Positions 1 to 12,834 of a stretch of DNA of 12,834 nt are shown here, in pieces. Source of the stretch: a virus. Its lineage: Duplodnaviria > Heunggongvirae > Uroviricota > Caudoviricetes. The notes under the pieces were generated by a model. That model searched no databases, had not been told where the DNA came from, and saw only the letters and a list, made by a program, of their open reading frames with translations. The stretch covers positions 1 through 12,834 of IMG/VR virus record IMGVR_UViG_2526164634_000024; one strand, 5' to 3'. The translations under genes were made by a program, and so were the position numbers. How positions within the stretch are numbered: position 1 is the first letter of the stretch; every line of letters starts with the position of its first letter.

Positions 1-960
1 TTACTCCTTGTCCATTGCGTACAGCCCATTAACCAGAGCAAATTGTGGCACCCCGTCCGCGATGAAAGTCGCATTAACTCCGCAGGCTTCGCGGATAGCG
101 GGTGCCACAATCTCCGCCCCGCCACCGACAACCATCACCCGCCCGTAACCCGAAAAACCCGCCAGCGCGCGGATCACGCGTTGTTTCAGTGTTTCTTCCT
201 TTTCACGAATAACCGCCATCAGGCTGGCGTAATGCGCGTCATTGTGGATGTGCTGGCGCAGCCAGGCTTCATCATGGCGATGTTCGATAATGGTATTGGC
301 GATGTGGTGACTGGTGCGCATACCGTTAGTGGCCATCACCGACAGTACGGCATCGGCCATAAGAGAAACGCCTACGTGTGGATCGCAAAACACCTGGCTG
401 ATACCTGCCAGTTGCCCCTGAACCTTTGCCACATCCAGCGTGGTTCCGCCCAAATCCACAATCAGCAGGGATTCAAACGGACTCATGTCAGCCAGTGCTT
501 TAAAGCCAGCCGGAATGGATTCAGGCATAACCCGTACGTTACGGATAGTGAATGCTTCGCCGTTCTGGTACTCCACCGGGCGCATAACGTTCGCTTTTTT
601 GCGGTTGATGTTGGCCATGTCCGGCTGTGCGTTTGTGTCGAAATACTCGCTCAGTGGCAGGGTAACAACCACATCCACTTCCTGTGGCGTGATGTCTGAT
701 TTGACCAGCGCGTGATGAATGGCAATGACATTCACATCGCTGTACTGGTATTGCGTGTCGGTCGTCTGGACAAAGCGATCGCTGACCGGATCAAAACCAT
801 AGCGCACGCCATCAAGCATGTAGTTAGCAGGCTGCGAGCCACCGAACGGCGCAGACCATTCCGACTTGAAGCTGTTCGGGCTGATGGCGTTGCGGCGTTC
901 GCCGTTCTCAGTCCATGCCAGCTTGATGTTGGTGGAGCCGTCGTCGATGTAAATTTTCAT
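1..960 (-). CDS. ParM/StbA-family actin-like ATPase (plasmid-segregation type), complete, 319 aa
   Basis: ORF from ATG at 960 to TAA at 1-3; AAGGA Shine-Dalgarno 8 nt upstream. N-terminus MKIYIDDGSTNIKLAW plus PNSFK, YSDVNV..HHAL, VMPESIPAG, LIVDLGGTTLD and VVGGGAE blocks match actin-fold nucleotide-binding motifs as I recall them from R1/R100 ParM (StbA); size matches ParM (~320 aa). Confidence 0.8.
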   Translation of the reverse strand: MKIYIDDGSTNIKLAWTENGERRNAISPNSFKSEWSAPFGGSQPANYMLDGVRYGFDPVSDRFVQTTDTQYQYSDVNVIAIHHALVKSDITPQEVDVVVTLPLSEYFDTNAQPDMANINRKKANVMRPVEYQNGEAFTIRNVRVMPESIPAGFKALADMSPFESLLIVDLGGTTLDVAKVQGQLAGISQVFCDPHVGVSLMADAVLSVMATNGMRTSHHIANTIIEHRHDEAWLRQHIHNDAHYASLMAVIREKEETLKQRVIRALAGFSGYGRVMVVGGGAEIVAPAIREACGVNATFIADGVPQFALVNGLYAMDKE

Positions 961-991
961 GTCGGTTTTCCTTATGTTGATTAATTAATCG

Positions 992-1103
992 TTTACGGGA
1001 TTCTGAAATCCCGTTTTTGCCTGTTTTGTGCGCGCCTCATATATCGCTGCGCGTTTTTTGCTCATTTACGGGATTCGTGAGTCCCGTTTCTGTCTGTTTT
1101 TTG
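992..1103. repeat. Two imperfect ~39-bp direct repeats (992-1030 and 1065-1103, period 73 bp), each containing a short palindrome (CGGGATT-n4-AATCCCG; ACGGGA-n8-TCCCGT) followed by a T-rich tract
   Basis: Read directly: TTTACGGGATTCTGAAATCCCGTTTTTGCCTGTTTTGTG versus TTTACGGGATTCGTGAGTCCCGTTTCTGTCTGTTTTTTG (~33/39 identical). Copy 1 is intergenic between the replication gene stop and the ParM-like start; copy 2 lies in the last ~20 codons of the replication gene. Confidence 0.6.
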
Positions 1104-3877
1104 TTTCCACTGGTCAGGCCACCCCGCAGCAGGTCTGCTTTGCGGCTGGCGCGTTCAGTGGTTTCACTGATTCTCTGTGCGTGCTCTGCGTCGCGGATGG
1201 CGCGCAGCATGTCAGAAAGCACGGTAACGGGTGTTTTCATGGTGTTCTGGTCCTGCTGAAGTGTGGATGCCAGGCGTGCGGCGGCTTCAGGGTCTGATGC
1301 CCCCAGCTGTGCCAGATAGCTGGCGACCGGGTTATGGCGGATCTCCGTGCTGCTTACGCCATGATTACGGCTCAGACGCTGCCAGAGCTGCGTGATTCGG
1401 CTGTCCGGGCGGGTATCCGGTTTGCGTACAATTTCAAATCCCTGCGGTGCAATGATGCTGCCGTCAACGTACAGACTGCCGCCCCGTAACAGGTGCTGCA
1501 TCTGTTGTTCACCGATATGCAGGCCGAGAGATTCAGCAGACTCCCGCCATTCTTTAGCGAGTAACTCGTGGTTATCAGGCAAAGGCCGCTGCTGTTTGCG
1601 GCTCTGTGTCCAGTTCTGCATTTCATCGCTGCTGTTTTTTGCCTGTTTGTCACGAAGCGAACGCATCAGCGCCCGGCGTTCGTGCCGTTTCAGTGAGCGC
1701 ATCCATTCATTTACTTCAACGCCGTCAGGAAGCTGCGGCCACGGTGCTGGCCGTTCTTCCGGCTGTTCTGTCCCGTTGTTGCCTGTTTCCTGTACACGGG
1801 GACAGTTATTGCCACGAGTCCAAGGGGCGGCAGGGCCGCCCTGAAGGTCAAAACCATTTTCGCGGGCGCTGTCTTCCGCTTCCGGTTTACGTCTTACCAG
1901 CTTCCAGTTATCCGGATGTGTGCACACACGGGAAGACTCCCCGATGAGTGGTGACCAGATCCCGTAAATCTGTACGCTCTGTTCGCCGTAATCGTTCAGC
2001 TCATCTGCGAGGTCGTAGGCGGTGCGAATCAGGTAGTCTTTGCGTGGAACAAGTACGCCGCCCTGTTTTTCAATGTAGGAGGCAAAACACCCGGCATCAG
2101 CGGCAGCGAGCACTGCATCCATTGCGTCATCCTTCAGCCGTTGCGGGCCTTCCGGGTTGCGTGCCATCTGGCTGGCAAGGCGGCGCAGTTCACGCCACAC
2201 CTGACGGGAGGGGATGCCAAAGAACTGGAACTGGCGGACCCGGTGAAGGCGCGCCCAGCCGATGGCGCGCTCCACGCTCTCGGCCATTGATTTTCCGGTT
2301 TCGTGGTCAACGCGTGGCTTGCCCGTTTTCGGGTCGATACCATCCACGGCGCGGCTGTCCAGGTTCTTTCCGATGTAGGTGGCGATGTAGCTGGTCGGTG
2401 TGCCTTTTGAGCCGTCGACGTACTCTGCCTTAAAGCGTGGGGTAATATCATCACCCAGCTCGTGACGATCTTCCTGAATGGCAATATCGCGGGTGTGGGA
2501 CACAATGGTGTCGATTTCTTCCGGATGAGCAAAGACCATCATATGCCAGTGCACGGTGCCGTCATGGTGAGGCTCCACCGTGCGGATGCCATACCAGCGC
2601 AGGCCGTCGCGGTTCAGTTTCTTGCGGACCGCCGCAAAAAACGAGTTAACCAGGTAATCGCTGGAGTCGCGCATAGTGGCCCCGTTCCATTTGGGATTCG
2701 GATGACCGTTCTCCGTTGTTGCGTGGTATTTTGACGGGCAGGTGACAGTCAGAAACACCGCTCTGTCGCCACGGGCTTCGGCCAGAAGTTCCAGCCCCTT
2801 CATGGTGGCCATCATTTCTGCCTTACGGTGAACCGGGTTACTTACTCCCGCGTAATACACTGTCTCAAGATCAATCGTGAACCCGTCTTCGTTTTCCAGC
2901 ATGAAACTTTTCAGGAAATCGCGTGTTTTCTCGCGCTGTGCGCGAAACTCGCTTAACGCATCCTGGCTCAGATAGGGCGATGTTTTTCTGGAAACCAGAC
3001 AGGCGGCGCGGAGTTGTTCTTCTCTCCACTCGCAACGTAACAGCCACAGTTTGCGTTTCCACCATTCCGCACAGGTCAGGCGAAGGATTGCGCCCGGCAG
3101 CAGCTCCGTGTCTGGTTCGTTCCTCCGGCCTTTGTCTGTTGTCAGTGCGTCATAATGCGGAGGCATGGCGTGCAGGTGTAACGCCATGCGGGCCAGCATC
3201 TGATACGCCTTCAGCGTTACATCCATGGTCAGCTCGCCATCAGTCGCACCAAAGCCATCGCAGAGTTTTTCGAAGGTGCTGCTGAACATCGCCGCCGTCA
3301 TGGTGGCCAGCGTCTGTATCTGGTGTTTGTTGAGCTGCGGCAGGTAAAGCAAATCGTCCAGGCGTTCGCGTCCGGCAAGGGAGCGATAACCCGGTGTCAG
3401 CCAGTGTCCGTCAGTGCGATCCAGACGTTCGAATATTTTGCGCAGGGTTCCGCGTGCATAGCGTTCTGCCTGCCAGCTCTTTTTGCCTTTCCGGCGATCG
3501 ACTTCCTGTTTTTTGCGCAGGAAAGAGAGGTGGCGGCTCAGAGGTTCACGCAGATAAACGGGAAGCACCTTCAGTGTGGCAAAAGCACGGGCCACCGGGT
3601 CTTGTTCTGTTGCCTGACGCTTGCTGATGATGCTTTGTGCCAGCTTTTCACGCTGTCCGGCTTCCTCAAGGGATGCCATGAGTTTTTTACCCACGGTGGA
3701 TTGTGCGAAAAAGGCTTCCTCCTTCGCTTCCTGTTCTTCCAGAGCCTTTTTGTCTGCCTCAAGGTAGTAACGGATGGCGCGTTGCAGGTCGGTTTCAGTT
3801 TCCTGCCTGTGCTCCGTAAATCTGGCCGGATCAATGGCTGGCCGTGGTTCATTCCAGCTCCATGCAAACTCATTCAT
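1037..3877 (-). CDS. Phage P2 gpA-family rolling-circle replication initiator (HUH endonuclease), ~946 aa
   Basis: Contains VEPHHDGTVHWHMMVF (HUH-type motif, cf. P2 A VEPHHDGTPHWHMMLF as recalled) and SYIATYIGKNLD (cf. P2 A GYIAKYISKNID). Preferred start is ATG at 3877 (MNEFAWSW...), overlapping the upstream ORF stop as ATGA; the ORF-track start at 3904 is a GTG. Stop TGA at 1037-1039. Confidence 0.85.
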   Translation of the reverse strand: MNEFAWSWNEPRPAIDPARFTEHRQETETDLQRAIRYYLEADKKALEEQEAKEEAFFAQSTVGKKLMASLEEAGQREKLAQSIISKRQATEQDPVARAFATLKVLPVYLREPLSRHLSFLRKKQEVDRRKGKKSWQAERYARGTLRKIFERLDRTDGHWLTPGYRSLAGRERLDDLLYLPQLNKHQIQTLATMTAAMFSSTFEKLCDGFGATDGELTMDVTLKAYQMLARMALHLHAMPPHYDALTTDKGRRNEPDTELLPGAILRLTCAEWWKRKLWLLRCEWREEQLRAACLVSRKTSPYLSQDALSEFRAQREKTRDFLKSFMLENEDGFTIDLETVYYAGVSNPVHRKAEMMATMKGLELLAEARGDRAVFLTVTCPSKYHATTENGHPNPKWNGATMRDSSDYLVNSFFAAVRKKLNRDGLRWYGIRTVEPHHDGTVHWHMMVFAHPEEIDTIVSHTRDIAIQEDRHELGDDITPRFKAEYVDGSKGTPTSYIATYIGKNLDSRAVDGIDPKTGKPRVDHETGKSMAESVERAIGWARLHRVRQFQFFGIPSRQVWRELRRLASQMARNPEGPQRLKDDAMDAVLAAADAGCFASYIEKQGGVLVPRKDYLIRTAYDLADELNDYGEQSVQIYGIWSPLIGESSRVCTHPDNWKLVRRKPEAEDSARENGFDLQGGPAAPWTRGNNCPRVQETGNNGTEQPEERPAPWPQLPDGVEVNEWMRSLKRHERRALMRSLRDKQAKNSSDEMQNWTQSRKQQRPLPDNHELLAKEWRESAESLGLHIGEQQMQHLLRGGSLYVDGSIIAPQGFEIVRKPDTRPDSRITQLWQRLSRNHGVSSTEIRHNPVASYLAQLGASDPEAAARLASTLQQDQNTMKTPVTVLSDMLRAIRDAEHAQRISETTERASRKADLLRGGLTSGNKKQTETGLTNPVNEQKTRSDI

Positions 3878-4263
3878 GGCTGGTATCCCGTCACGCGCTG
3901 CCACTCCTGCGAGAAGAGGGCAGAAAGGCGGTTAAATTCAGCGGTGTATTCACTCAGCGAGGCACACCCGCCAGCAGTGCGATGCGCCAGCATTGCCGCA
4001 AATACGGAGGCCGGGGAGTCGTAATACGCCAGCAGTGATTCTCCGTGTGGTGTCAGGCAGTGCAACGCCAGCCCGTGTGGTGTGAAGTCCACGCGGTAGC
4101 AGTCGTCTACTGTGAAATAAAGGGTGTCTGCATTCTCCGGTTTTGTGGTGCGTGCTCTGTTGTCACGACCACGGATGTAGAGATCAAATAATCCCTGAAG
4201 AACGGGAGCCAGACGGGTGTCCTGTGTGCGCACCCATCTTGTGAAGTCATGAGCGTCAATCAT
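3874..4263 (-). CDS. Hypothetical protein, 129 aa, translationally coupled to the replication initiator
   Basis: ATG at 4263, stop at 3874-3876 overlapping the Rep start (ATGA); same strand and context as the early operon. No family recognised. Confidence 0.55.
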   Translation of the reverse strand: MIDAHDFTRWVRTQDTRLAPVLQGLFDLYIRGRDNRARTTKPENADTLYFTVDDCYRVDFTPHGLALHCLTPHGESLLAYYDSPASVFAAMLAHRTAGGCASLSEYTAEFNRLSALFSQEWQRVTGYQP

Positions 4264-4335
4264 GCTGCAATTCTCTTTACTACAGATGTGCGAAGGCCTC
4301 CCGCCGCAAGGTGCAGGAAAGGCCCGGAACAGGAA

Positions 4336-4566
4336 TTAATGGAGTTTGTTTTGCTGCTGGAAGAGTTGTTGCAGCTCGCGCAGATCATCCGCCAGATAGC
4401 TGAAAACAGAGGCGGAATAGATGTTCGATAGCGCGTGGCTGCGCTCATGCAGCATATTGATGTGCATGATTTGCGCGACGCGTGATGCGCGGAAAAGTCT
4501 ACGGTTGATTTCAGTCTGGATGTGACGACGCGCAGCGTATGCGCGCTGTTGTTTGCGGTTTGCCAT
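4336..4566 (-). CDS. Hypothetical small basic protein, 76 aa
   Basis: ATG at 4566 preceded by AAGAGG Shine-Dalgarno at 7-nt spacing; R/K-rich N-terminus. No family recognised. Confidence 0.55.
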   Translation of the reverse strand: MANRKQQRAYAARRHIQTEINRRLFRASRVAQIMHINMLHERSHALSNIYSASVFSYLADDLRELQQLFQQQNKLH

Positions 4567-4745
4567 GGTGTGGCCTCTTTGCTCGGTGATAGAAATAGCT
4601 CACCATCCAGAGTTGAGAATCTCGGGGTGGCGAGACGTACAGGGTTCTCAACACCGGAGAGCAAAGAATCCGGCCCGACCGAAGTCGGCCCCGTACGCCC
4701 CGCCATAATTCTGACGCGAAAAAGACGTGGCAATACAGTACGCAC

Positions 4746-4766
4746 AAAAAAACCGCTGGCGCGGTT
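4746..4766 (-). terminator. Candidate intrinsic terminator on the minus strand (6-bp GC stem AACCGC/GCGGTT, 4-nt loop, followed by a 7-U run)
   Basis: Plus-strand sequence AAAAAAACCGCTGGCGCGGTT reads on the minus strand as hairpin followed by TTTTTTT. The stem is short, so this is tentative. Confidence 0.35.
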
Positions 4767-4838
4767 ATGCGCTTTGCTCTGTATCGGGTTGAGAATCCCG
4801 GCACCCGTTTTATGAGGTGCAGCGGAAATGTAACCTGA

Positions 4839-4867
4839 CCGATTGCGGCATGGCAAGCGGTTTTTTT
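4839..4867 (+). terminator. Candidate intrinsic terminator on the plus strand (8-bp stem with one mismatch, 6-nt loop, 7-T run)
   Basis: CCGATTGC-GGCATG-GCAAGCGG-TTTTTTT read directly. No credible plus-strand protein gene lies upstream, which suggests a plus-strand non-coding or antisense transcript. Confidence 0.35.
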
Positions 4868-4888
4868 GTGTGTGCATGTTCTGGTTTC

Positions 4889-5188
4889 TTACTGGTTCAG
4901 AAAAAAATCAAAAACCTTGTCAATGCGTTGCAGCAGCTCTTGCTGCATTGCTTCCGGCGTTTCCGGTTCGCCAGGTGCCCCCAGCGTTGCGCAGAAATCA
5001 GCGATTTCATGATGGAGCGTCAGGCGAATGGCAGGAGCCGTGGTTCTGGCGTGCTCCAGCTGATCCAGCAGTGCCAGCACAGCAGACGGCGAGAGCATTG
5101 CGCGAAATGCCAGTAATTTTTGAGGAGTTGCCATTCGTTGCAGGGCAAATGCCAGTTCGCGTAGCTTCTGGTGGTTGATGGTGCTCAT
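4889..5188 (-). CDS. Hypothetical protein, 99 aa
   Basis: ATG at 5188 overlaps the stop of the upstream ORF (ATGA); part of the leftward early operon. No family recognised. Confidence 0.55.
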   Translation of the reverse strand: MSTINHQKLRELAFALQRMATPQKLLAFRAMLSPSAVLALLDQLEHARTTAPAIRLTLHHEIADFCATLGAPGEPETPEAMQQELLQRIDKVFDFFLNQ

Positions 5189-5451
5189 GTTCTGGCTTCC
5201 TTCAGTAGCTGGTTAAACATGTGAGTAAGTGGATTGCTACACCCGAACGGCATCGGGTTTACTTGGTAAGAAGCCTGGCCTCCAGTTTTGCGAGCGCGAC
5301 CACCTGTGCTGCGGTTTGTTCTGATGACTAAGCCGCCGCGCCAAAGTTGGCGTAACTCAGCATTAATGGCTGTGGTTGGAGTATTCAGTGCTGCGGCGAT
5401 CTCTCCGCCGCTACACCCCGGATGAGTAGCGATGTAGTCCAGAATGGTCAT
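5185..5451 (-). CDS. Putative small winged-helix DNA-binding protein, 88 aa
   Basis: N-terminal ILDYIATHPGCSGGEIAAALNTPTTAINAELRQLWRGGLV pattern resembles winged-HTH recognition modules; start overlaps the upstream stop (ATGA). Family assignment is tentative. Confidence 0.5.
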   Translation of the reverse strand: MTILDYIATHPGCSGGEIAAALNTPTTAINAELRQLWRGGLVIRTNRSTGGRARKTGGQASYQVNPMPFGCSNPLTHMFNQLLKEART

Positions 5452-5651
5452 CTGCGTGGCTCCTGTACTTGTCGGATAAGATTCACCCGCGCCACGTTGG
5501 TGGCGCAGAAATAAGTGCCGTCAGTGAGGTAGATGTGGTGCGCATCCTTTTCCGAACGATGTTTGTCGATAGTGGTAATCAGGCGTTCGTCGACCTCGTA
5601 TTCGCGCCCTCTGGAGGTAAAGCGAACGACGGAAAAATGCTTAATTGCCAT
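5448..5651 (-). CDS. Hypothetical protein, 67 aa
   Basis: ATG at 5651 with strong AAGGGGG Shine-Dalgarno upstream; stop overlaps the next start (ATGA). Confidence 0.55.
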   Translation of the reverse strand: MAIKHFSVVRFTSRGREYEVDERLITTIDKHRSEKDAHHIYLTDGTYFCATNVARVNLIRQVQEPRR

Positions 5652-5674
5652 TGCGCCCCCTTTGTCCAGTAACC

Positions 5675-6091
5675 CTATGCGTTAAATACGGCACGTTGCG
5701 CGTCATCAATGAATACAGCTTGAGAGCGTTCTATCAGGCGGAGATTTGTCAGAAGCTCAGACTCTTTTGTGTGGTAAGGCGTTATCAGGTATTTGCCGTG
5801 CAGTTCGGCAATAATGGTGTATTGCGGCATCATTGCTGAACCAAGAATATAAATGCAGCGTCCAATGCTGGACGGATTCATGGCTGCAACTGTTGACTGT
5901 GTTTTAAGAGTGTCGATTTCTTTGCTCTGTTCCTCAATAATTTTGGCTGCGTCAGCGGTGATTTTTGCAATGGTCAGTGCGTGAAGTGCTGCCATATGTT
6001 GGCTACGCTTCACGGCATCTTTAGCCGTTTCATCTTCCGCTTCTGATATTTTTTTTAATGTGTTGATAATGCCTTCTTCTTTTGTGTTCAT
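5675..6091 (-). CDS. Hypothetical protein, 138 aa (N-terminal coiled-coil-like)
   Basis: ATG at 6091 preceded by GGAGA Shine-Dalgarno at ~6 nt; no family recognised. Confidence 0.55.
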   Translation of the reverse strand: MNTKEEGIINTLKKISEAEDETAKDAVKRSQHMAALHALTIAKITADAAKIIEEQSKEIDTLKTQSTVAAMNPSSIGRCIYILGSAMMPQYTIIAELHGKYLITPYHTKESELLTNLRLIERSQAVFIDDAQRAVFNA

Positions 6092-6183
6092 TTTATATCT
6101 CCGTTATTTACGTGTGCGAATACCTCCGCGAATGCGGATAGTTTTCAGGTTTTCGGGTTTAATCTGGTGTTTTGTTTAAGCTG

Positions 6184-6297
6184 TTATTCGTCAGTGAAAA
6201 AGCGTTCAATCTTTTTTACTGAATGAATAATTCGCATAATCCCAATGGCGCAGGCCACCGAAATAATCAGAACAAGCCATGAGATAAATATACTCAT
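6184..6297 (-). CDS. Candidate small hydrophobic membrane peptide, 37 aa (MSIFISWLVLIISVACAIGIMRIIHSVKKIERFFTDE); not in the supplied ORF track
   Basis: Hand-translated: ATG at 6297-6295 overlaps the TGA stop of the upstream 80-aa ORF (ATGA), runs to TAA at 6186-6184. One predicted transmembrane helix followed by a basic/acidic tail. Confidence 0.4.
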   Translation of the reverse strand: MSIFISWLVLIISVACAIGIMRIIHSVKKIERFFTDE

Positions 6298-6536
6298 GCG
6301 ATATTCCCCAGCTTATACGGTTCAATATGTTCCCCGCATTCTGCGGCACAGATCAGCTCGGAAAGTTCGTTAAGTGCATCCAGATCATCAGCGTAAAAAG
6401 CGACGTCATACAAACTCCGGATTGCCCTGGTCAATGAGTCACGAGCTGCACGTTCAGCATGAGCGCCTGATGCACTTAAGCGAAAATAAAATCGTTCAAG
6501 TGCTTTGTTAATGAGAGTTTTATATTCTTTGCCCAT
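6294..6536 (-). CDS. Hypothetical protein, 80 aa
   Basis: ATG at 6536 with AAGGG Shine-Dalgarno upstream; coupled to the small downstream peptide ORF. Confidence 0.55.
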   Translation of the reverse strand: MGKEYKTLINKALERFYFRLSASGAHAERAARDSLTRAIRSLYDVAFYADDLDALNELSELICAAECGEHIEPYKLGNIA

Positions 6537-6547
6537 CGCAACGCCCT

Positions 6548-6826
6548 TTAATCTGCTTTCTGAATTTCAGCTTCTGAATCCATACAAATAATTTCGATAT
6601 ATGGTTCATCGCCATTAACCTGACGTGCCTTTTCAGCTTCGCTAATGATTCCGTGTACAGTCTGGTACGGAAGTTCTACGGTCAGGCGCGTGCCGTTCAG
6701 ATAAACGTAAGTAGCTGCATTTTTTTCTGATGGGACAACTCCATCAATAGCTGATGCGCGCAATAACAGTTCACCGCGAAAATCAATAAAACGGATAAAT
6801 ACACCTTGTGCATGCTCTTTGGTCAT
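6548..6826 (-). CDS. Hypothetical protein, ~92 aa (start taken at internal ATG 6826 rather than the ORF-track start at 6925)
   Basis: Start at 6826 follows the stop of the upstream ORF (6837) by 10 nt with a GGTG upstream; the 6925 start would overlap the upstream gene by ~90 nt. Confidence 0.45.
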   Translation of the reverse strand: MTKEHAQGVFIRFIDFRGELLLRASAIDGVVPSEKNAATYVYLNGTRLTVELPYQTVHGIISEAEKARQVNGDEPYIEIICMDSEAEIQKAD

Positions 6827-6836
6827 AACGCACCTG

Positions 6837-7175
6837 TTATAAATCAGTCTGTTTAATAAAACTTTGCCCGCGAAGCAGACGATCAACCGTGCGAAGTGCT
6901 TCGTACAATGTGAAATCCTGTCCAAACTGAGTGTCGCCGTTGCTCAGAGCAAAAATGCGGTTTCCGGTAAATGGGTTGCGTTGGCATCTGTGAACCACGA
7001 TTCCAGCTTTCTCAATCAGCCAGGTGTGTTCACCAATTTGTTTTACGGGATGGCCATCAGGTGTAGCGTGTGTTTCGCTCAGGCTGTAGCGGGAGTTACT
7101 ACGTGATGCACTGGTAGCGAAACGGTTAGCGTGGCGTTCCGTTCCGGTACGAAAATTATGGCGTTGCTTCAGCAT
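6837..7175 (-). CDS. Hypothetical protein, 112 aa; second gene of the leftward early operon
   Basis: ATG at 7175 with GAGGTG Shine-Dalgarno at 7-nt spacing, 14 nt after the Cox-like stop. Confidence 0.5.
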   Translation of the reverse strand: MLKQRHNFRTGTERHANRFATSASRSNSRYSLSETHATPDGHPVKQIGEHTWLIEKAGIVVHRCQRNPFTGNRIFALSNGDTQFGQDFTLYEALRTVDRLLRGQSFIKQTDL

Positions 7176-7189
7176 AAAATTACACCTCG

Positions 7190-7468
7190 TTATTTTGTCA
7201 TCTGCACGTATTTCTCTGCGCTCCTGATGGTTTTCAGGAATATTGCGAAAAGGTTTACTTTGCGTTTTGTGTTTCTTCCTTCTTGGGTGACGGGGATTAC
7301 TGATCTGTCGGCCTGCCTTCTTACCGCAAGAATGCTTTGATTCGTGCGTTTCGCGTAATCTTCCAGGCTTTCTTCAAGCACAGGTAACCCATGCTCATCA
7401 CGGTATGGGTAGAACGCCGCCAAACGCTCAAAATCCGCTTGTTCGTATGTGTTCAGGACTTTTGCCAT
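7190..7468 (-). CDS. Cox-like small HTH excisionase/early regulator, 92 aa
   Basis: First gene of the leftward operon, divergent from the C-type repressor as in P2; length matches P2 Cox (~91 aa); segment YAKRTNQSILAVRRQADRSVIPV resembles the P2 Cox region FAKLIGKSTGAVRRMIDKGKLPVI as recalled. Positional and weak-motif evidence only. Confidence 0.5.
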   Translation of the reverse strand: MAKVLNTYEQADFERLAAFYPYRDEHGLPVLEESLEDYAKRTNQSILAVRRQADRSVIPVTQEGRNTKRKVNLFAIFLKTIRSAEKYVQMTK

Positions 7469-7563
7469 GATGTGATAACCTATTCAATCTGGTGCTATTT
7501 GTGGCTTTTTGTGGCGTCAAGTGGTACTCAACTGATAACCAATATAGTATTCAGGTGCACACC
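7469..7563. promoter_or_regulatory. Divergent control region between the Cox-like and C-type repressor genes; contains direct repeats TTTGTGGC x2 (7498-7505, 7508-7515) and TGATAACC x2 (7471-7478, 7534-7541)
   Basis: Repeats read directly. P2 C repressor is known to recognise direct rather than inverted repeats at the early promoter. Promoter hexamers here are not confidently assignable by eye. Confidence 0.5.
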
Positions 7564-7875
7564 ATGTCAATAGAGATATCAAAGAAGCTAAAAGCAATTC
7601 GAGAATCTGAGGGACTTAGCCAGGCAAAGTTCGCGGATTCAATAGGTATTGCGGTTGGTACAGTTAAGCAATATGAGACTGGTATTAGAGGTGTGGGGAC
7701 GGAGGTTTTACTGAAAATCACAATGCATCCGAACTTTAAAAAATACACCACGTGGTTGATGAGTAACGAAACAAATGAGGCTGCTGGGCAGATCAGTCCG
7801 TCTCTCTCCCCTGATGGGCCAAAAAGCACATCGCCTTCTCAAAAACCCCGCAAGACTGGCACACAGCCCGGCTAA
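7564..7875 (+). CDS. P2 C-type immunity repressor (XRE-like HTH), 103 aa
   Basis: Start at internal ATG 7564 (MSIEISKK...) with AGGTG Shine-Dalgarno at 7 nt. HTH region LSQAKFADSIGIAVGTVKQYETG and C-terminal ...PNFKKYTTWLMSNE...AAGQISP resemble P2 C (..PQFTKYTLWFMTNQ...SGQIAP) as recalled. Located directly upstream of int, as in P2. Confidence 0.8.
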   Translation: MSIEISKKLKAIRESEGLSQAKFADSIGIAVGTVKQYETGIRGVGTEVLLKITMHPNFKKYTTWLMSNETNEAAGQISPSLSPDGPKSTSPSQKPRKTGTQPG

Positions 7876-7924
7876 TCATGGAGCGCTGGGGGCATGGTGG
7901 TCTTGTAACGCTGGGGTTTCACGA

Positions 7925-8902
7925 ATGAGCATAAAATCAATTCCGGGAGGGTATCTTCTTGACATGCGCCCGGAGGGGCGTAAAGGCAAACGCATTCGCA
8001 AAAAATTTAAAACGAAATCGGATGCAGTTTTATATGAGCGGTGGGTGCTGGCGCAACAGCATAACAATGAGTGGAAAGGAAACTCCATTGATCGCCGTCC
8101 GCTGTCAGTGCTTATTGACTTGTGGTGGAAATACCACGGCCAGCTAATGAAGTCAGGGCATAACACGCGCCTTAAATTGCTGCGCTTGAGTGAGGCAATG
8201 GATGACCCGTGCGTGCATAAACTTAATACAACGATGCTCACCGAGCTACGTGTGTCCAGGATAGAGCAGGGGATACAGCCCAGCACCATAAATCGAGAGA
8301 TTGGGGCGTTAAGCGCGATGTTTACCGCACTCATCTCATCCGGCCATTTTCTTAACGATAACCCCGTTCAAGGCCTTAAAGGAATGAAGGTTAACGAGCG
8401 CGAAATGGGATATCTGAGTAAGTCTGAATGTGTTCAGTTGCTGGATGCACTGGCTGAAAATCCCGATGAACGACTGGCTGTCGAAATCCTTCTGTCGACC
8501 GGGGCGCGATGGGGCGAGGTAGCGGCACTGGAGCAGCGCCGTGTTCTTCATTGTCGAATCACTTTTTCAAAAACGAAGAACAGCAAAAACCGTACCGTTC
8601 CTATTTCTGAAAGCCTGTTTGAAAAGATCAAAAAACGGGGCGGGAAACTGGTGTTTCCGACGCTGGATTATTCATTGGTTCGCGATGTCATCAAAACGGT
8701 CGCACCTGATGTTCCTGACGGCCAGGCTGTTCATGCGCTGCGCCACACCTTCGCCAGTCATTTCATGATGAACGGCGGCAATATTCTGACGCTCCAGAAA
8801 ATTCTGGGGCACGCAAAGATTCAGACAACGATGATTTATGCCCATCTTGCGCCGGATTACCTGCAGGATGCGGTGAGGTTTAATCCACTAGGAGGTGCTT
8901 AA
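7925..8902 (+). CDS. int: Tyrosine integrase, P2 Int-like, 325 aa
   Basis: Start at ATG 7925 (MSIKSIPGGY...). Conserved catalytic-region motifs LSTGARWGE, HALRHTFASHF and MIYAHLAPDY (catalytic Tyr); strong overall resemblance to P2 Int as recalled (GKRIRKKF, TGARWGE, PISE, NGG.I.TLQ.ILGH). Confidence 0.9.
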   Translation: MSIKSIPGGYLLDMRPEGRKGKRIRKKFKTKSDAVLYERWVLAQQHNNEWKGNSIDRRPLSVLIDLWWKYHGQLMKSGHNTRLKLLRLSEAMDDPCVHKLNTTMLTELRVSRIEQGIQPSTINREIGALSAMFTALISSGHFLNDNPVQGLKGMKVNEREMGYLSKSECVQLLDALAENPDERLAVEILLSTGARWGEVAALEQRRVLHCRITFSKTKNSKNRTVPISESLFEKIKKRGGKLVFPTLDYSLVRDVIKTVAPDVPDGQAVHALRHTFASHFMMNGGNILTLQKILGHAKIQTTMIYAHLAPDYLQDAVRFNPLGGA

Positions 8903-8904
8903 GA

Positions 8905-9267
8905 GTGAAGTTTCATTTAGATGAACTTAAAAGAATGGCAACGCTCGATAATTTTGCGCGTTTTCTCAATGAGTCGTCTACGAATGAAAAATGTTTGTCG
9001 TGTGGCGATACGGATATGTACATGTATTTGACGAATATTGTTGAGGTGGGGCCTGAGCCGAAAACTGCTGAGGAGTGTGATTTAGGCACTTTTGTTATGC
9101 TTGATTACATCGGTCCATTTACTGGGTATCCGGGATATGAGGGACATGATCGGGAAAATATCCATAACTATGAATTCCGACTTACCTGTAACAGATGTGG
9201 GTTTGTTCATCGTTACTCGGCCCGGGCCTTTATGAACTGGGTAGGCAAGCAGGGTGATGAGAAGTGA
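8905..9267 (+). CDS. Hypothetical Cys-rich (putative Zn-ribbon) protein, 120 aa
   Basis: GTG start at 8905, 2 nt after the int stop, with GGAGG Shine-Dalgarno 9 nt upstream (inside the int 3' end). Two CxxC pairs (CLSCG near residue 30, CNRCG near residue 100). Visibly AT-richer than the flanking int. No family recognised. Confidence 0.55.
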   Translation: MKFHLDELKRMATLDNFARFLNESSTNEKCLSCGDTDMYMYLTNIVEVGPEPKTAEECDLGTFVMLDYIGPFTGYPGYEGHDRENIHNYEFRLTCNRCGFVHRYSARAFMNWVGKQGDEK

Positions 9268-9704
9268 TGGCAGAGAATGTTGCACATATTTCGCGGTTCA
9301 GAAAAAAGAAAGAGAATGCCTATAATGTATCCAACAACCAAGTAACAGGAAGTGGTAATGATGGAGGTGATGGCATGAATGACGACCTTGAACGGCGGGT
9401 CAGTTGCCTGGAAAGTGATGTGACTGAAATCAAAAACAACCTGATTACTCTCACCACAAGAAGCGAATCCTTTGCTACCAAATCTGATGTACTGGAGATT
9501 CGCGAAGGGTTGAGGCTTGAGATGGCAGAATCGCGCCAATCCCTGAAGTCTGAGATGGCTGATTTACGCCAGTCTCTGAAAGTTGAGATGGCTGAGCATC
9601 GTACTGAACTTCAGAAATCATTTGCAAATCAGACTTGGTTACTCACAGGTATTGTCCTGTCTGCGATGGCCGTGCTTGTGGCTGTGGTTACTGTTATTAA
9701 GTAA
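9267..9704 (+). CDS. Hypothetical coiled-coil protein with C-terminal transmembrane anchor, ~145 aa (alternative start at 9375 giving ~109 aa)
   Basis: Start overlaps the upstream stop (GTGATGA). Internal ATG at 9375 has a perfect GGAGG at 7-nt spacing. Three tandem 11-residue repeats (EMAESRQSLKS / EMADLRQSLKV / EMAEHRTELQK) and hydrophobic C-terminus LLTGIVLSAMAVLVAVVTVIK. Confidence 0.55.
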   Translation: MAENVAHISRFRKKKENAYNVSNNQVTGSGNDGGDGMNDDLERRVSCLESDVTEIKNNLITLTTRSESFATKSDVLEIREGLRLEMAESRQSLKSEMADLRQSLKVEMAEHRTELQKSFANQTWLLTGIVLSAMAVLVAVVTVIK

Positions 9705-9829
9705 ATTTATGGCGGCGATATGATCCACAAAGTGACCACATCCCTGTTATTTGTTGTGGTTGGCTGTGTTTTTGTGTGTCTGTAAGTCTTTGATAATTAT
9801 CTAACTTGTTGATTTTTACTTGTGTTTAT

Positions 9830-9845
9830 GGCCGCTTGCGCGGCC
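9830..9845 (-). other. Perfect GC hairpin GGCCGC-TTGC-GCGGCC located 19 nt downstream of the acrB stop
   Basis: Read directly. No U-tract follows on the acrB strand, so it is not a canonical intrinsic terminator; it may be a 3' stabilising stem-loop or part of a recombination/junction region. Confidence 0.4.
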
Positions 9846-9864
9846 TTAGTGATTACACGTTGTA

Positions 9865-12834
<2,970 letters not shown>

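What the first reader, a model, noticed from the sequence alone, without database searches (positions are those of the whole stretch)
8905..9704. AT-rich two-gene cassette (Zn-ribbon protein + membrane-anchored coiled-coil protein) translationally coupled downstream of the integrase
In P2 the integrase is the last gene before the attachment site; here two extra genes follow it. They are coupled to int and to each other (2-nt gap with a GGAGG inside the int 3' end; GTGATGA overlap) and are visibly lower in GC than int and the replication genes, suggesting separate acquisition. Being on the repressor-int transcript, they would be expressed in the lysogen. That is the expression pattern expected for superinfection-exclusion, abortive-infection or other lysogenic-conversion functions. 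Neither protein matches a family I recognise; a Cys4 zinc ribbon paired with a bitopic coiled-coil membrane protein could act as a sensor-effector pair.
Basis: partly seen in the sequence, partly recalled or inferred. Interest (0 to 1): 0.7.

Follow-up and report, generated by a model that had tools for sequence, protein, structure and literature searches.

The report
Swappable two-gene prophage cargo cassette
Two small, tightly coupled genes sit just after the integrase of a P2-like E. coli prophage: a zinc-ribbon protein and a membrane-tethered coiled-coil protein. They form a conserved, mobile accessory module of unknown function, most likely a candidate phage-exclusion module, in a slot already known to collect such cargo.

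Summary
ORF1 (8905-9267) and ORF2 (9267-9704) follow int with a 2-nt gap and overlap each other. Both are under purifying selection.

They belong to the prophage, not the chromosome. The same cassette sits next to btuC or yhbY in other strains, and prophage-free E. coli have none of it beside acrB.

ORF1 founds an unnamed family of ~100-165-aa proteins with invariant CxxC...CxxC. ORF2 is a tail-anchored, DUF1640-like coiled coil with an 'FATKSD' beta-layer-type motif and a variable number of 11-residue repeats.

The A-then-B pair is conserved in 33 of 36 viral loci and hops between accessory slots:
- int-att
- cI-int
- gpV-gpS
- a siphophage tail region

In E. coli prophages with this int, the slot holds three alternative alleles (86, 39 and 158 genomes) between conserved flanks.

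Low GC is not diagnostic, because the neighbouring early region is equally AT-rich. No hit to any known defence model.

The int-att slot was described in 2026 as a minor P2 defence hotspot. Function is untested. My best guess is a lysogen-expressed, membrane-tethered exclusion or defence module. It is a good experimental candidate, not a surprise.

The parts
7564..7875 (+). C-type HTH repressor, the first gene of the presumed lysogenic operon
   Evidence: PF01381 HTH_3 at 9e-10 and phrog_147 at 1e-32.
7925..8902 (+). Tyrosine integrase of 325 aa. Its last ~10-15 nt form the left boundary of the swappable cassette.
   Evidence: Int_N plus Phage_integrase domains. Present in 299 of 5426 E. coli genomes. 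Identity to other alleles ends at 8886-8895.
8892..8896 (+). GGAGG Shine-Dalgarno sequence for ORF1, inside the int 3' end
   Evidence: Read directly from the sequence. It lies 8 nt before GTG 8905.
8905..9267 (+). ORF1 ('A'): a 120-aa acidic soluble protein with an N-terminal helix and a Cys4 zinc ribbon. The loop at residues ~44-64 is hypervariable.
9267..9704 (+). ORF2 ('B'): a 145-aa tail-anchored coiled-coil protein. Its ATG overlaps the ORF1 TGA; an alternative GTG lies at 9264.
   Evidence: RefSeq WP_000829983.1. phrog_9415 at 1e-42. Relatives hit PF07798 CCDC90-like with best E 5e-7. AF2 predicts a helix over residues 37-144 and a disordered N-terminus.
9363..9377 (+). Internal GGAGG plus ATG (Met37 of ORF2). 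This is a possible second start giving a 109-aa isoform.
   Evidence: The Met is conserved in most B relatives aligned, and the window and 11 other loci inspected all have GGAGG or GGGGG 5-10 nt upstream. Many GenBank records use this start. Unresolved.
9471..9488 (+). The 'FATKSD' beta-layer-type motif (residues 69-74 of ORF2) at the start of the stalk
   Evidence: R65, S66, E67, K72 and D74 are invariant in the closer relatives (A3/A5). The consensus [aliphatic]-A-T-K-[polar]-[DE] of DUF1640 comes from PMC4786415.
9517..9595 (+). A 33-bp tandem repeat (2.4 copies) encoding 11-residue repeats EMAxxRQSLKx. Copy number varies among alleles.
   Evidence: TRF score 98. Homologues carry 1 to 5 or more repeats, and Erwinia has about 12.
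9642..9698 (+). C-terminal transmembrane anchor of ORF2 (residues 126-144)
   Evidence: KD19 of 2.65 and no other hydrophobic segment. The same feature is present in 33 of 36 downstream partners in viral loci.
9705..9829 (.). Prophage attL arm (35.7% GC). It is conserved in prophages that carry other cargo alleles, and the right cassette boundary lies at ~9715-9720.
   Evidence: 93-95% identity to L003, L005 and L027 from 9715/9720 onward. GC.
9827..9848 (.). Prophage/chromosome junction inside the acrB terminator hairpin GGCCGCTTGCGCGGCC
   Evidence: The SE11 prophage match ends at 9840 and the acrB-side match starts at 9830.

Best explanation
The region is a self-contained two-gene accessory ('moron') module carried in the int-att cargo slot of a P2-like prophage.

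Shown:
- The genes are real and translationally coupled to int and to each other.
- They lie inside the prophage.
- They are exchanged as a unit between conserved flanks.
- The A-then-B pair recurs in several accessory slots of different temperate phages.

Inferred:
- The pair is transcribed from the lysogenic promoter together with C and int, and so is made in the lysogen.
- B inserts by its C-terminal anchor into the inner membrane and forms a (probably trimeric) DUF1640-like coiled-coil stalk on the cytoplasmic face. A short conserved N-terminal peptide hangs from this stalk on a flexible Gly-rich linker.
- A is a soluble acidic zinc-ribbon protein with a fast-evolving loop. It binds B and acts as the specificity or sensor subunit.
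- Together they would act at the membrane against incoming or replicating competitor phages, by superinfection exclusion or abortive infection.
For: Mobility and allele swapping:
- The cassette is 95-100% identical in 86 of 5426 complete E. coli genomes, always chromosomal.
- In the SE11-type genomes examined it follows the same int next to btuC. Diverged versions (72% and 66% protein identity) follow int at yhbY in L010 and, on a short contig, in L012.
- The slot holds three alleles between conserved flanks: 86, 39 and 158 genomes out of about 299 with this int.

Synteny:
- A-then-B is found as int-A-B-att in E. coli, Salmonella, Yersinia and Klebsiella.
- It is found as cI-(Flk_N)-A-B-int in Citrobacter and Hafnia 186-like prophages.
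- It lies between gpV and gpS in Pectobacterium, with its own terminator.
- It lies in the tail region of Klebsiella siphophages.
- 33 of 36 viral loci have an overlapping downstream tail-anchored partner.

Coding and operon structure:
- Purifying selection acts on both genes.
- The A loop at 44-64 concentrates 15 of 26 differences against L007, while B is nearly identical.
- No terminator is predicted inside the operon.

Literature:
- The int-att region of P2 holds 3% of recognised P2 defence systems (PMC13586616).
- The cI-int region of K139-like phages is a defence hotspot (PMC9122126).
- DUF1640 beta-layer and trimer logic comes from PMC4786415.
Against: - No experiment or expression data exist for these genes. 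A search for the accession numbers in papers found nothing.
- There is no significant hit to any PADLOC model, and no Pfam or NCBIfam hit above cut-off for the window proteins.
- The A fold matches nothing beyond a generic zinc ribbon.
- B-like genes occur alone, without A or int, at a fixed chromosomal site (map-glnD) in two Erwinia species. The B family is therefore not intrinsically a phage-defence effector.
- Only 15-32% of unknown P2 proteins scored as defence-like in PMC13586616.
Confidence: 0.42

Rival explanations
1. Lysogenic-conversion module that alters host physiology rather than blocking phages. B would act as a tail-anchored cytoplasmic-face scaffold, in the manner of E. coli ElaB/YqjD/YgaM or mitochondrial MCUR1/CCDC90B, and A as its adaptor. 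The result would be a change in membrane or stress behaviour of the lysogen.
For: - B has the DUF1640-like architecture.
- Stand-alone B homologues are vertically kept between map and glnD in Erwinia, which suggests a cellular role.
- There is no defence-model hit.
Against: - A is found only with B and, in every context examined, in temperate phages.
- The pair sits in slots known for defence cargo and is swapped rapidly.
- The A loop diverges fast, which is more typical of conflict genes.
Confidence: 0.2
2. Phage life-cycle accessory acting at the inner membrane. One example would be a modulator of holin or endolysin release, analogous in concept to the membrane-tethered cytoplasmic Mu gp25 releasin. 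Another would be a regulator of induction or lysogeny.
For: - 3 of 10 B relatives give weak hits to DUF2730, the Mu gp25 family, with best E 4.6e-4.
- Mu gp25 is a membrane-tethered cytoplasmic protein (PMC9239132).
- B carries a conserved internal start-like Met, reminiscent of dual-start lysis regulators.
Against: - DUF2730 proteins have an N-terminal TMD, whereas B has a C-terminal one, and those genes lie within 5 genes of the endolysin.
- A-B is never in the lysis cassette. It sits in the lysogenic operon or in moron slots on the opposite strand to the late genes.
- It is dispensable. More than half of the prophages with the same int carry an unrelated 131-aa gene instead.
Confidence: 0.15
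3. Toxin-antitoxin or addiction pair that stabilises the prophage. B would be a small membrane toxin and A its upstream, translationally coupled antidote.
For: - The gene order (small soluble protein first, membrane protein second, overlapping) resembles type II TA layout.
- B has a single very hydrophobic helix.
Against: - B homologues exist alone in Erwinia chromosomes.
- B is mostly a long soluble coiled coil with variable repeat number, not a minimal pore peptide.
- One genome has a frameshifted A allele next to an intact B.
- No TA family hit was found.
Confidence: 0.08
4. Integrase accessory or recombination-directionality factor, since the genes are glued to int.
For: There is tight coupling to int in both gene orders, int-A-B and A-B-int.
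Against: - The pair also occurs far from any int, between gpV and gpS and in siphophage tail regions.
- A is acidic (pI 5.1), so an unlikely DNA binder.
- Prophages with the same int lack it.
Confidence: 0.03
5. Host chromosomal genes next to acrB, not part of the prophage.
For: None found.
Against: - K-12 and thousands of genomes have tomB-acrB with no such genes.
- The acrB-side match starts only at 9830.
- The cassette moves with the prophage.
Confidence: 0.01

Closest known systems
Cargo of the int-att hotspot of P2-like prophages (PMC13586616, NAR 2026) and of the cI-int hotspot of K139-like P2 relatives (PMC9122126)
   Same: Same position: between int and the att site here, and between cI and int in 186-like relatives. 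Content is swapped between conserved flanks, and the orientation matches the lysogenic operon.
   Different: Those papers describe the slots and the recognised defence systems in them. This A-B pair matches none of the DefenseFinder/PADLOC-type models tested here and has no assigned activity.
DUF1640 / CCDC90-like family (PF07798; MCUR1, CCDC90B and prokaryotic homologues)
   Same: A coiled-coil stalk ending in a C-terminal TM helix, with an A-T-K-x-D beta-layer-type motif at the start of the stalk. RefSeq names a sister allele DUF1640, and 4 of 10 relatives hit the HMM.
   Different: The window protein itself scores far below the Pfam cut-off (10.9 against 33.5 bits). It has a Gly-rich linker plus a short N-terminal peptide instead of the DUF1640 head domain. 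It has hendecad repeats of variable number, and it is paired with a zinc-ribbon partner.
P2 exclusion genes old, tin and fun(Z), and other lysogen-expressed exclusion morons (e.g. K139 glo, HK97 gp15; from my own knowledge)
   Same: Non-essential prophage genes in variable slots, expected to be expressed in the lysogen.
   Different: No sequence or fold relation. Old is a nuclease and Tin targets a T-even ssDNA-binding protein, while A-B has no enzymatic domain.
Mu gp25 releasin (DUF2730)
   Same: A small phage protein made of a cytoplasmic, mostly helical, acidic domain tethered to the inner membrane by one TM helix.
   Different: The anchor has opposite polarity (N-terminal TMD). It is a late gene next to the endolysin, whereas A-B lies outside the lysis cassette.
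Zorya ZorA cytoplasmic coiled-coil tail
   Same: A membrane-anchored long cytoplasmic coiled coil in a defence context. B relatives give weak compositional hits to ZorA tail positions.
   Different: There is no MotA/ExbB-like channel domain. The hits have E of 1e-3 to 2e-5 and fall on coiled coil only, so this is resemblance of shape, not homology.

Membership tests
DUF1640 / CCDC90-like (PF07798), for ORF2 | Pfam HMM score at or above the gathering cut-off | tested here: not met
   The window protein scores 10.9 bits (E 0.43) against a cut-off of 33.5. 4 of 10 relatives hit at E<=0.1, best 5.2e-7. RefSeq labels allele WP_001689686.1 as DUF1640.
DUF1640 / CCDC90-like (PF07798), for ORF2 | C-terminal single TM helix after a coiled-coil stalk | tested here: met
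   KD19 of 2.65 at residues 126-144 of 145. Helix predicted for residues 37-144.
DUF1640 / CCDC90-like (PF07798), for ORF2 | Beta-layer motif [aliphatic]-A-T-K-[polar]-[DE] at the start of the stalk (PMC4786415) | tested here: inconclusive
   The motif is F-A-T-K-S-D at residues 69-74, with K72 and D74 invariant in the closer relatives. The first residue is aromatic, not aliphatic, and the monomer model cannot show a beta-layer.
DUF1640 / CCDC90-like (PF07798), for ORF2 | Homotrimeric assembly | not testable with these tools
   Only single-chain prediction was available.
Zinc ribbon (TFIIS/Rpb9-type), for ORF1 | Two CxxC knuckles on beta-hairpins | tested here: met
   C30, C33, C95 and C98 are invariant in 30 sequences. 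Strands flank both pairs in the AF2 model.
Zinc ribbon (TFIIS/Rpb9-type), for ORF1 | Significant structural match to solved zinc ribbons | tested here: inconclusive
Known anti-phage defence systems (PADLOC-DB v2) | Significant match of a component to a system model | tested here: not met
   Best E is 0.03 and 0.007 for the window proteins. Relatives hit only coiled-coil parts of ZorA and LmuB.
Prophage hotspot cargo (int-att slot of P2-like phages) | Lies between int and the att site, inside the element | tested here: met
   The junction is at 9830-9840, and the cassette ends about 125 nt inside it.
Prophage hotspot cargo (int-att slot of P2-like phages) | Alternative, unrelated contents between conserved flanks in close relatives | tested here: met
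   Three alleles in 86, 39 and 158 genomes, with flanks 93-98% identical.
Prophage hotspot cargo (int-att slot of P2-like phages) | Confers protection against phages | not testable with these tools
   Needs plaque assays.
DUF2730 / Mu gp25 releasin, for ORF2 | N-terminal TMD (N-out, C-in) and a position within about 5 genes of the endolysin | tested here: not met
   The TM is C-terminal and there is no lysis gene nearby. Family features come from PMC9239132.
Type II toxin-antitoxin pair | Match to a known toxin or antitoxin family, and a toxin not found without its antidote | tested here: not met
   No Pfam or NCBIfam hit. B occurs alone in Erwinia.

The most novel reading that the evidence does not exclude
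A-B is a previously unrecognised two-component anti-phage (exclusion or abortive-infection) system, widespread in enterobacterial temperate phages. A hypervariable zinc-ribbon protein would act as sensor. It would be docked on a tail-anchored, trimeric, DUF1640-like coiled coil whose stalk length varies by hendecad repeat number. That coiled coil may be made as two isoforms from a conserved internal start. This would also give the first functional handle on prokaryotic DUF1640-like proteins.
Probability: 0.3. Interest if true: 0.7.

Novelty: new variant of a known kind. Interest (0 to 1): 0.45.

Why it matters
If the pair is a defence or exclusion module, it adds a compact system with no enzymatic domain (265 aa in total) and an unusual architecture. 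It would also show that the int-att slot, read from the lysogenic promoter, is a productive place to look for such systems.

It would give a testable function to two families of unknown function:
- the zinc-ribbon family, with about 255 clusters at 50% identity;
- the phage branch of DUF1640-like tail-anchored coiled coils.

The three-allele polymorphism between identical flanks in about 290 E. coli genomes is a ready-made natural experiment. Even if the pair is not a defence system, the strict A-B synteny across P2-like, 186-like and siphophage genomes marks it as a functional unit worth cloning.

Tried and rejected
- DNA search of the phage collection with the cassette found no match. A protein search with ORF2 also found none. 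ORF1 found only 4 Klebsiella records.
- The plasmid collection gave no match.
- Pfam, NCBIfam and PADLOC on the window proteins gave nothing above cut-off.
- PDB sequence search with both family profiles returned only insignificant coiled-coil or CxxC hits. These include beta-layer constructs 7o92 and 5apt, and 6h9l at E 0.82.
- The search for related loci with the broad A alignment failed for lack of a conserved stretch. With the B alignment on species-representative genomes it returned only two Erwinia loci.
- The sigma-70 scan gave no more promoter-like sites than chance. I therefore do not lean on the TTCAGA-18-TATAAT site at 9297-9326, upstream of the internal start.
- Low GC as evidence of foreign origin is rejected because the neighbouring early region has the same GC.
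- The frameshifted A allele in RM12367-C1 is not evidence that A is dispensable, because other genomes have it intact (1039 against 1038 bp).

Full report
WHAT IS IN THE WINDOW

The window is E. coli DNA. Positions 1-9830 are the early end of a P2-like prophage:
- ParM gene, 1-960 (-)
- replication endonuclease, 1037-3904 (-)
- C4 and isrK small RNAs
- DUF4754 and DUF4761 early genes
- a cox-like gene
- C-type repressor, 7564-7875 (+)
- integrase, 7925-8902 (+)

Positions 9865-12834 are acrB on the minus strand.

The finding lies between int and the prophage end. ORF1 runs from 8905 to 9267 (GTG start, 120 aa) and ORF2 from 9267 to 9704 (145 aa). RefSeq annotates exactly these two genes as hypothetical proteins WP_000668483.1 and WP_000829983.1.

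CHECK OF THE OBSERVATION

The coupling signals are as described. The int stop is TAA at 8900-8902, GGAGG lies at 8892-8896, and the ORF1 GTG at 8905.

Both ORFs evolve as coding sequence. Against relatives with dS above 1, dN/dS is 0.11-0.18 for ORF1 and 0.12 for the ORF2 core. The 36-residue N-terminal extension of ORF2 gives 0.19-0.23, so the upstream, overlapping start is really used.

The GC values are correct: 43.3% and 44.7% against 49.6% for int and 56.7% for repA. But the whole early/immunity region 5675-7875 is 44.6%. Composition alone therefore does not mark the cassette as foreign.

No terminator-like site separates C, int, ORF1 and ORF2.

INSIDE THE PROPHAGE, AND SWAPPABLE

The cassette is found at 95-100% identity in 86 of 5426 complete E. 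coli genomes, always on the chromosome. In SE11 and STEC384, the two such genomes whose annotation I read, it follows the same int next to btuC, not acrB. The spread of chromosomal positions suggests the same for most of the others.

Diverged versions follow int in other prophages. One is at yhbY/rlmE. Others are in a Salmonella genome, a Yersinia genome and on a Klebsiella P2-like episome.

In K-12 the neighbour of acrB is tomB. The match to ordinary E. coli starts only at window 9830, and the match to the SE11 prophage ends at 9840.

The same int occurs in 299 genomes. Identity between prophages stops at window 8886-8895 and resumes at 9715-9720. Three inserts occupy the space in between:
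- this A-B pair, in 86 genomes;
- a second, diverged A'-B' pair whose B is annotated 'DUF1640 domain-containing protein', in 39 genomes;
- an unrelated 131-aa gene, in 158 genomes.

In CH4793 that 131-aa gene is frameshifted. This is cassette exchange by recombination in conserved flanks. It is much better evidence of separate acquisition than GC.

THE TWO PROTEINS

ORF1 ('A') is acidic (pI 5.1) and has no hydrophobic segment. A profile search found 33 clusters in Enterobacterales. An exhaustive HMM search found 255 representative clusters at E<=1e-3. All are about 100-165 aa and unnamed.

Invariant features are the two CxxC pairs. Nearly invariant are an N-terminal 'TPxxFxxFL' helix and a C-terminal Trp. 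The AF2 model (pLDDT 74.6) shows two N-terminal helices, a beta-ribbon core and a C-terminal helix.

ORF2 ('B') has, in order:
- a short N-terminal peptide;
- a Gly-rich linker ('GNDGGDG');
- a conserved Met;
- a conserved helix, 'LERRVxxLExDVxxIK';
- the motif 'RSESFATKSD';
- 11-residue repeats (33-bp tandem repeat at 9517-9595, with 1 to 5 or more copies in alleles);
- a C-terminal TM helix with one residue after it.

The motif matches the beta-layer consensus that Hartmann et al. describe for DUF1640 membrane proteins at the start of their stalk (PMC4786415). Four of ten relatives hit PF07798, best 5e-7. The window protein itself is far below the Pfam cut-off, so I call it DUF1640-like rather than a member.

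Weak DUF2730 hits are compositional, because the Mu gp25 family has its TM at the N-terminus.

In the window and the 11 other loci I inspected, the Met after the Gly linker is preceded by GGAGG or GGGGG at SD distance. Many GenBank records annotate only the 109-aa form. A second, shorter isoform is possible, but the Met may equally be a core residue of the coiled coil.

THE PAIR IS THE UNIT

A is followed by a B-type gene in every context examined. Four arrangements were seen:
- int-A-B-att;
- cI-(Flk_N protein)-A-B-int in 186-like prophages of Citrobacter and Hafnia;
- between gpV and gpS (by my recollection the position of the P2 orf30 moron) in Pectobacterium, on the strand opposite to the late genes and with its own strong terminator;
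- in about 50-kb Klebsiella siphophages, 1-2 kb upstream of the tape-measure gene.

Of 36 IMG/VR loci with a recognisable A gene, 33 have a downstream ORF of 94-137 aa that overlaps A by 4-14 nt (ATGA or longer overlaps). Each has a strongly hydrophobic C-terminal tail and no other TM.

B without A occurs between map and glnD in two Erwinia species.

HOW IT PROBABLY WORKS

From my own knowledge of P2, int is co-transcribed with C from Pc. The lack of any gap or terminator here makes co-expression in the lysogen the simplest reading, but it is inferred.

B should sit in the inner membrane with everything but its anchor in the cytoplasm, probably as a trimer. A is soluble with a fast-changing loop and is the likely specificity subunit bound to B.

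All four positions are accessory slots, and the two flanking int are published defence hotspots. The int-att slot holds 3% of P2 systems (PMC13586616). The cI-int slot is a hotspot in K139-like phages (PMC9122126). PMC13586616 also reports a hotspot of accessory and defence genes within the P2 tail genes.

I therefore rate a phage-exclusion or abortive-infection role as the most likely single function, at about 0.4-0.45. Non-defence lysogenic conversion, a life-cycle accessory role and an addiction module are the rivals. An int-accessory role is unlikely because the pair also occurs far from any int.

Nothing here demonstrates activity. No defence model matches and no paper mentions these accessions.

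COMPARISON AND NOVELTY

The kind of thing is known: swappable cargo in a P2 hotspot. The specific module is not described anywhere I could search. Its composition, a zinc ribbon plus a DUF1640-like tail-anchored coiled coil with no enzymatic domain, differs from catalogued systems. I file it as a new variant of a known kind, of moderate interest.

Noticed in passing
window 9827-9848 (junction), with 9705-9829: The prophage is joined to the chromosome inside the acrB terminator hairpin GGCCGCTTGCGCGGCC. Phage DNA replaces the T-tract that follows the stem on the acrB strand. None of 5426 complete E. coli genomes has this junction. The usual site for this int is a similar hairpin (GGCCGCTCTGCGGCC + T-run) upstream of btuC. 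It looks like a secondary-site integration. The lysogenic operon now converges on acrB without a T-run terminator on its own strand.
   Followed up: partly
window 9706-9716 and 9825-9835: An 11-nt direct repeat, TTTATGGCGGC / TTTATGGCCGC. One copy lies directly after the ORF2 stop and the other at the att core. It could be an Int-binding repeat or a scar of cassette insertion.
   Followed up: no
window 4623-4710 (-) and 4746-4820 (-): Rfam matches above gathering score to C4 antisense RNA (78.5 bits) and isrK Hfq-binding sRNA (62.8 bits). Both lie in the early leftward operon, in a stretch with no convincing ORF.
   Followed up: no
window 1-960 (-): A full-length ParM actin-like segregation ATPase gene (StbA_N 1e-80, ParM C-terminal 1e-68) lies just downstream of the replication gene. 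This is the main gpA-gpQ cargo hotspot of P2-like phages, and it is an unusual cargo for an integrated prophage.
   Followed up: no
window 9363-9377; also L007, L010, L011, L013, L014, L016, L030, L033, L035, L038, L042: In each of these loci, which span the B lineages I examined, B has a Gly-rich linker followed by a Met with GGAGG or GGGGG 5-10 nt upstream. This suggests a possible conserved internal start giving a short isoform. The N-terminal extension is nevertheless under purifying selection.
   Followed up: partly
L014 4606-5631 and L022 3954-4979: In 186-like prophages, the C-terminus of the cI-like 128-aa protein (..NRVAGRDYNENNK) and the N-terminus of the next gene share a motif. That next gene is a 209-aa tail-anchored protein carrying a precomputed Flk_N hit (..QNRTAGRDFTENRV). 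It precedes A-B in the same operon.
   Followed up: no
L002 (E. coli F8704-2) 11820-12800: Here the A-B cassette is preceded by a truncated gpW/gp25 baseplate gene instead of int. The prophage is rearranged or deleted but has kept the cassette next to btuC.
   Followed up: no
L017 4929-5399 and L018 4827-5615 (Erwinia): Stand-alone B homologues lie between map and glnD, with no A and no integrase. The E. aeris copy carries about 12 hendecad repeats (LRGELKEDxxS).
   Followed up: partly
L019 6247-7530 (Yersinia enterocolitica): In the Yersinia prophage a further 427-aa gene with no Pfam or PADLOC hit follows int-A-B before the chromosome. The slot can therefore hold more than the pair.
   Followed up: no
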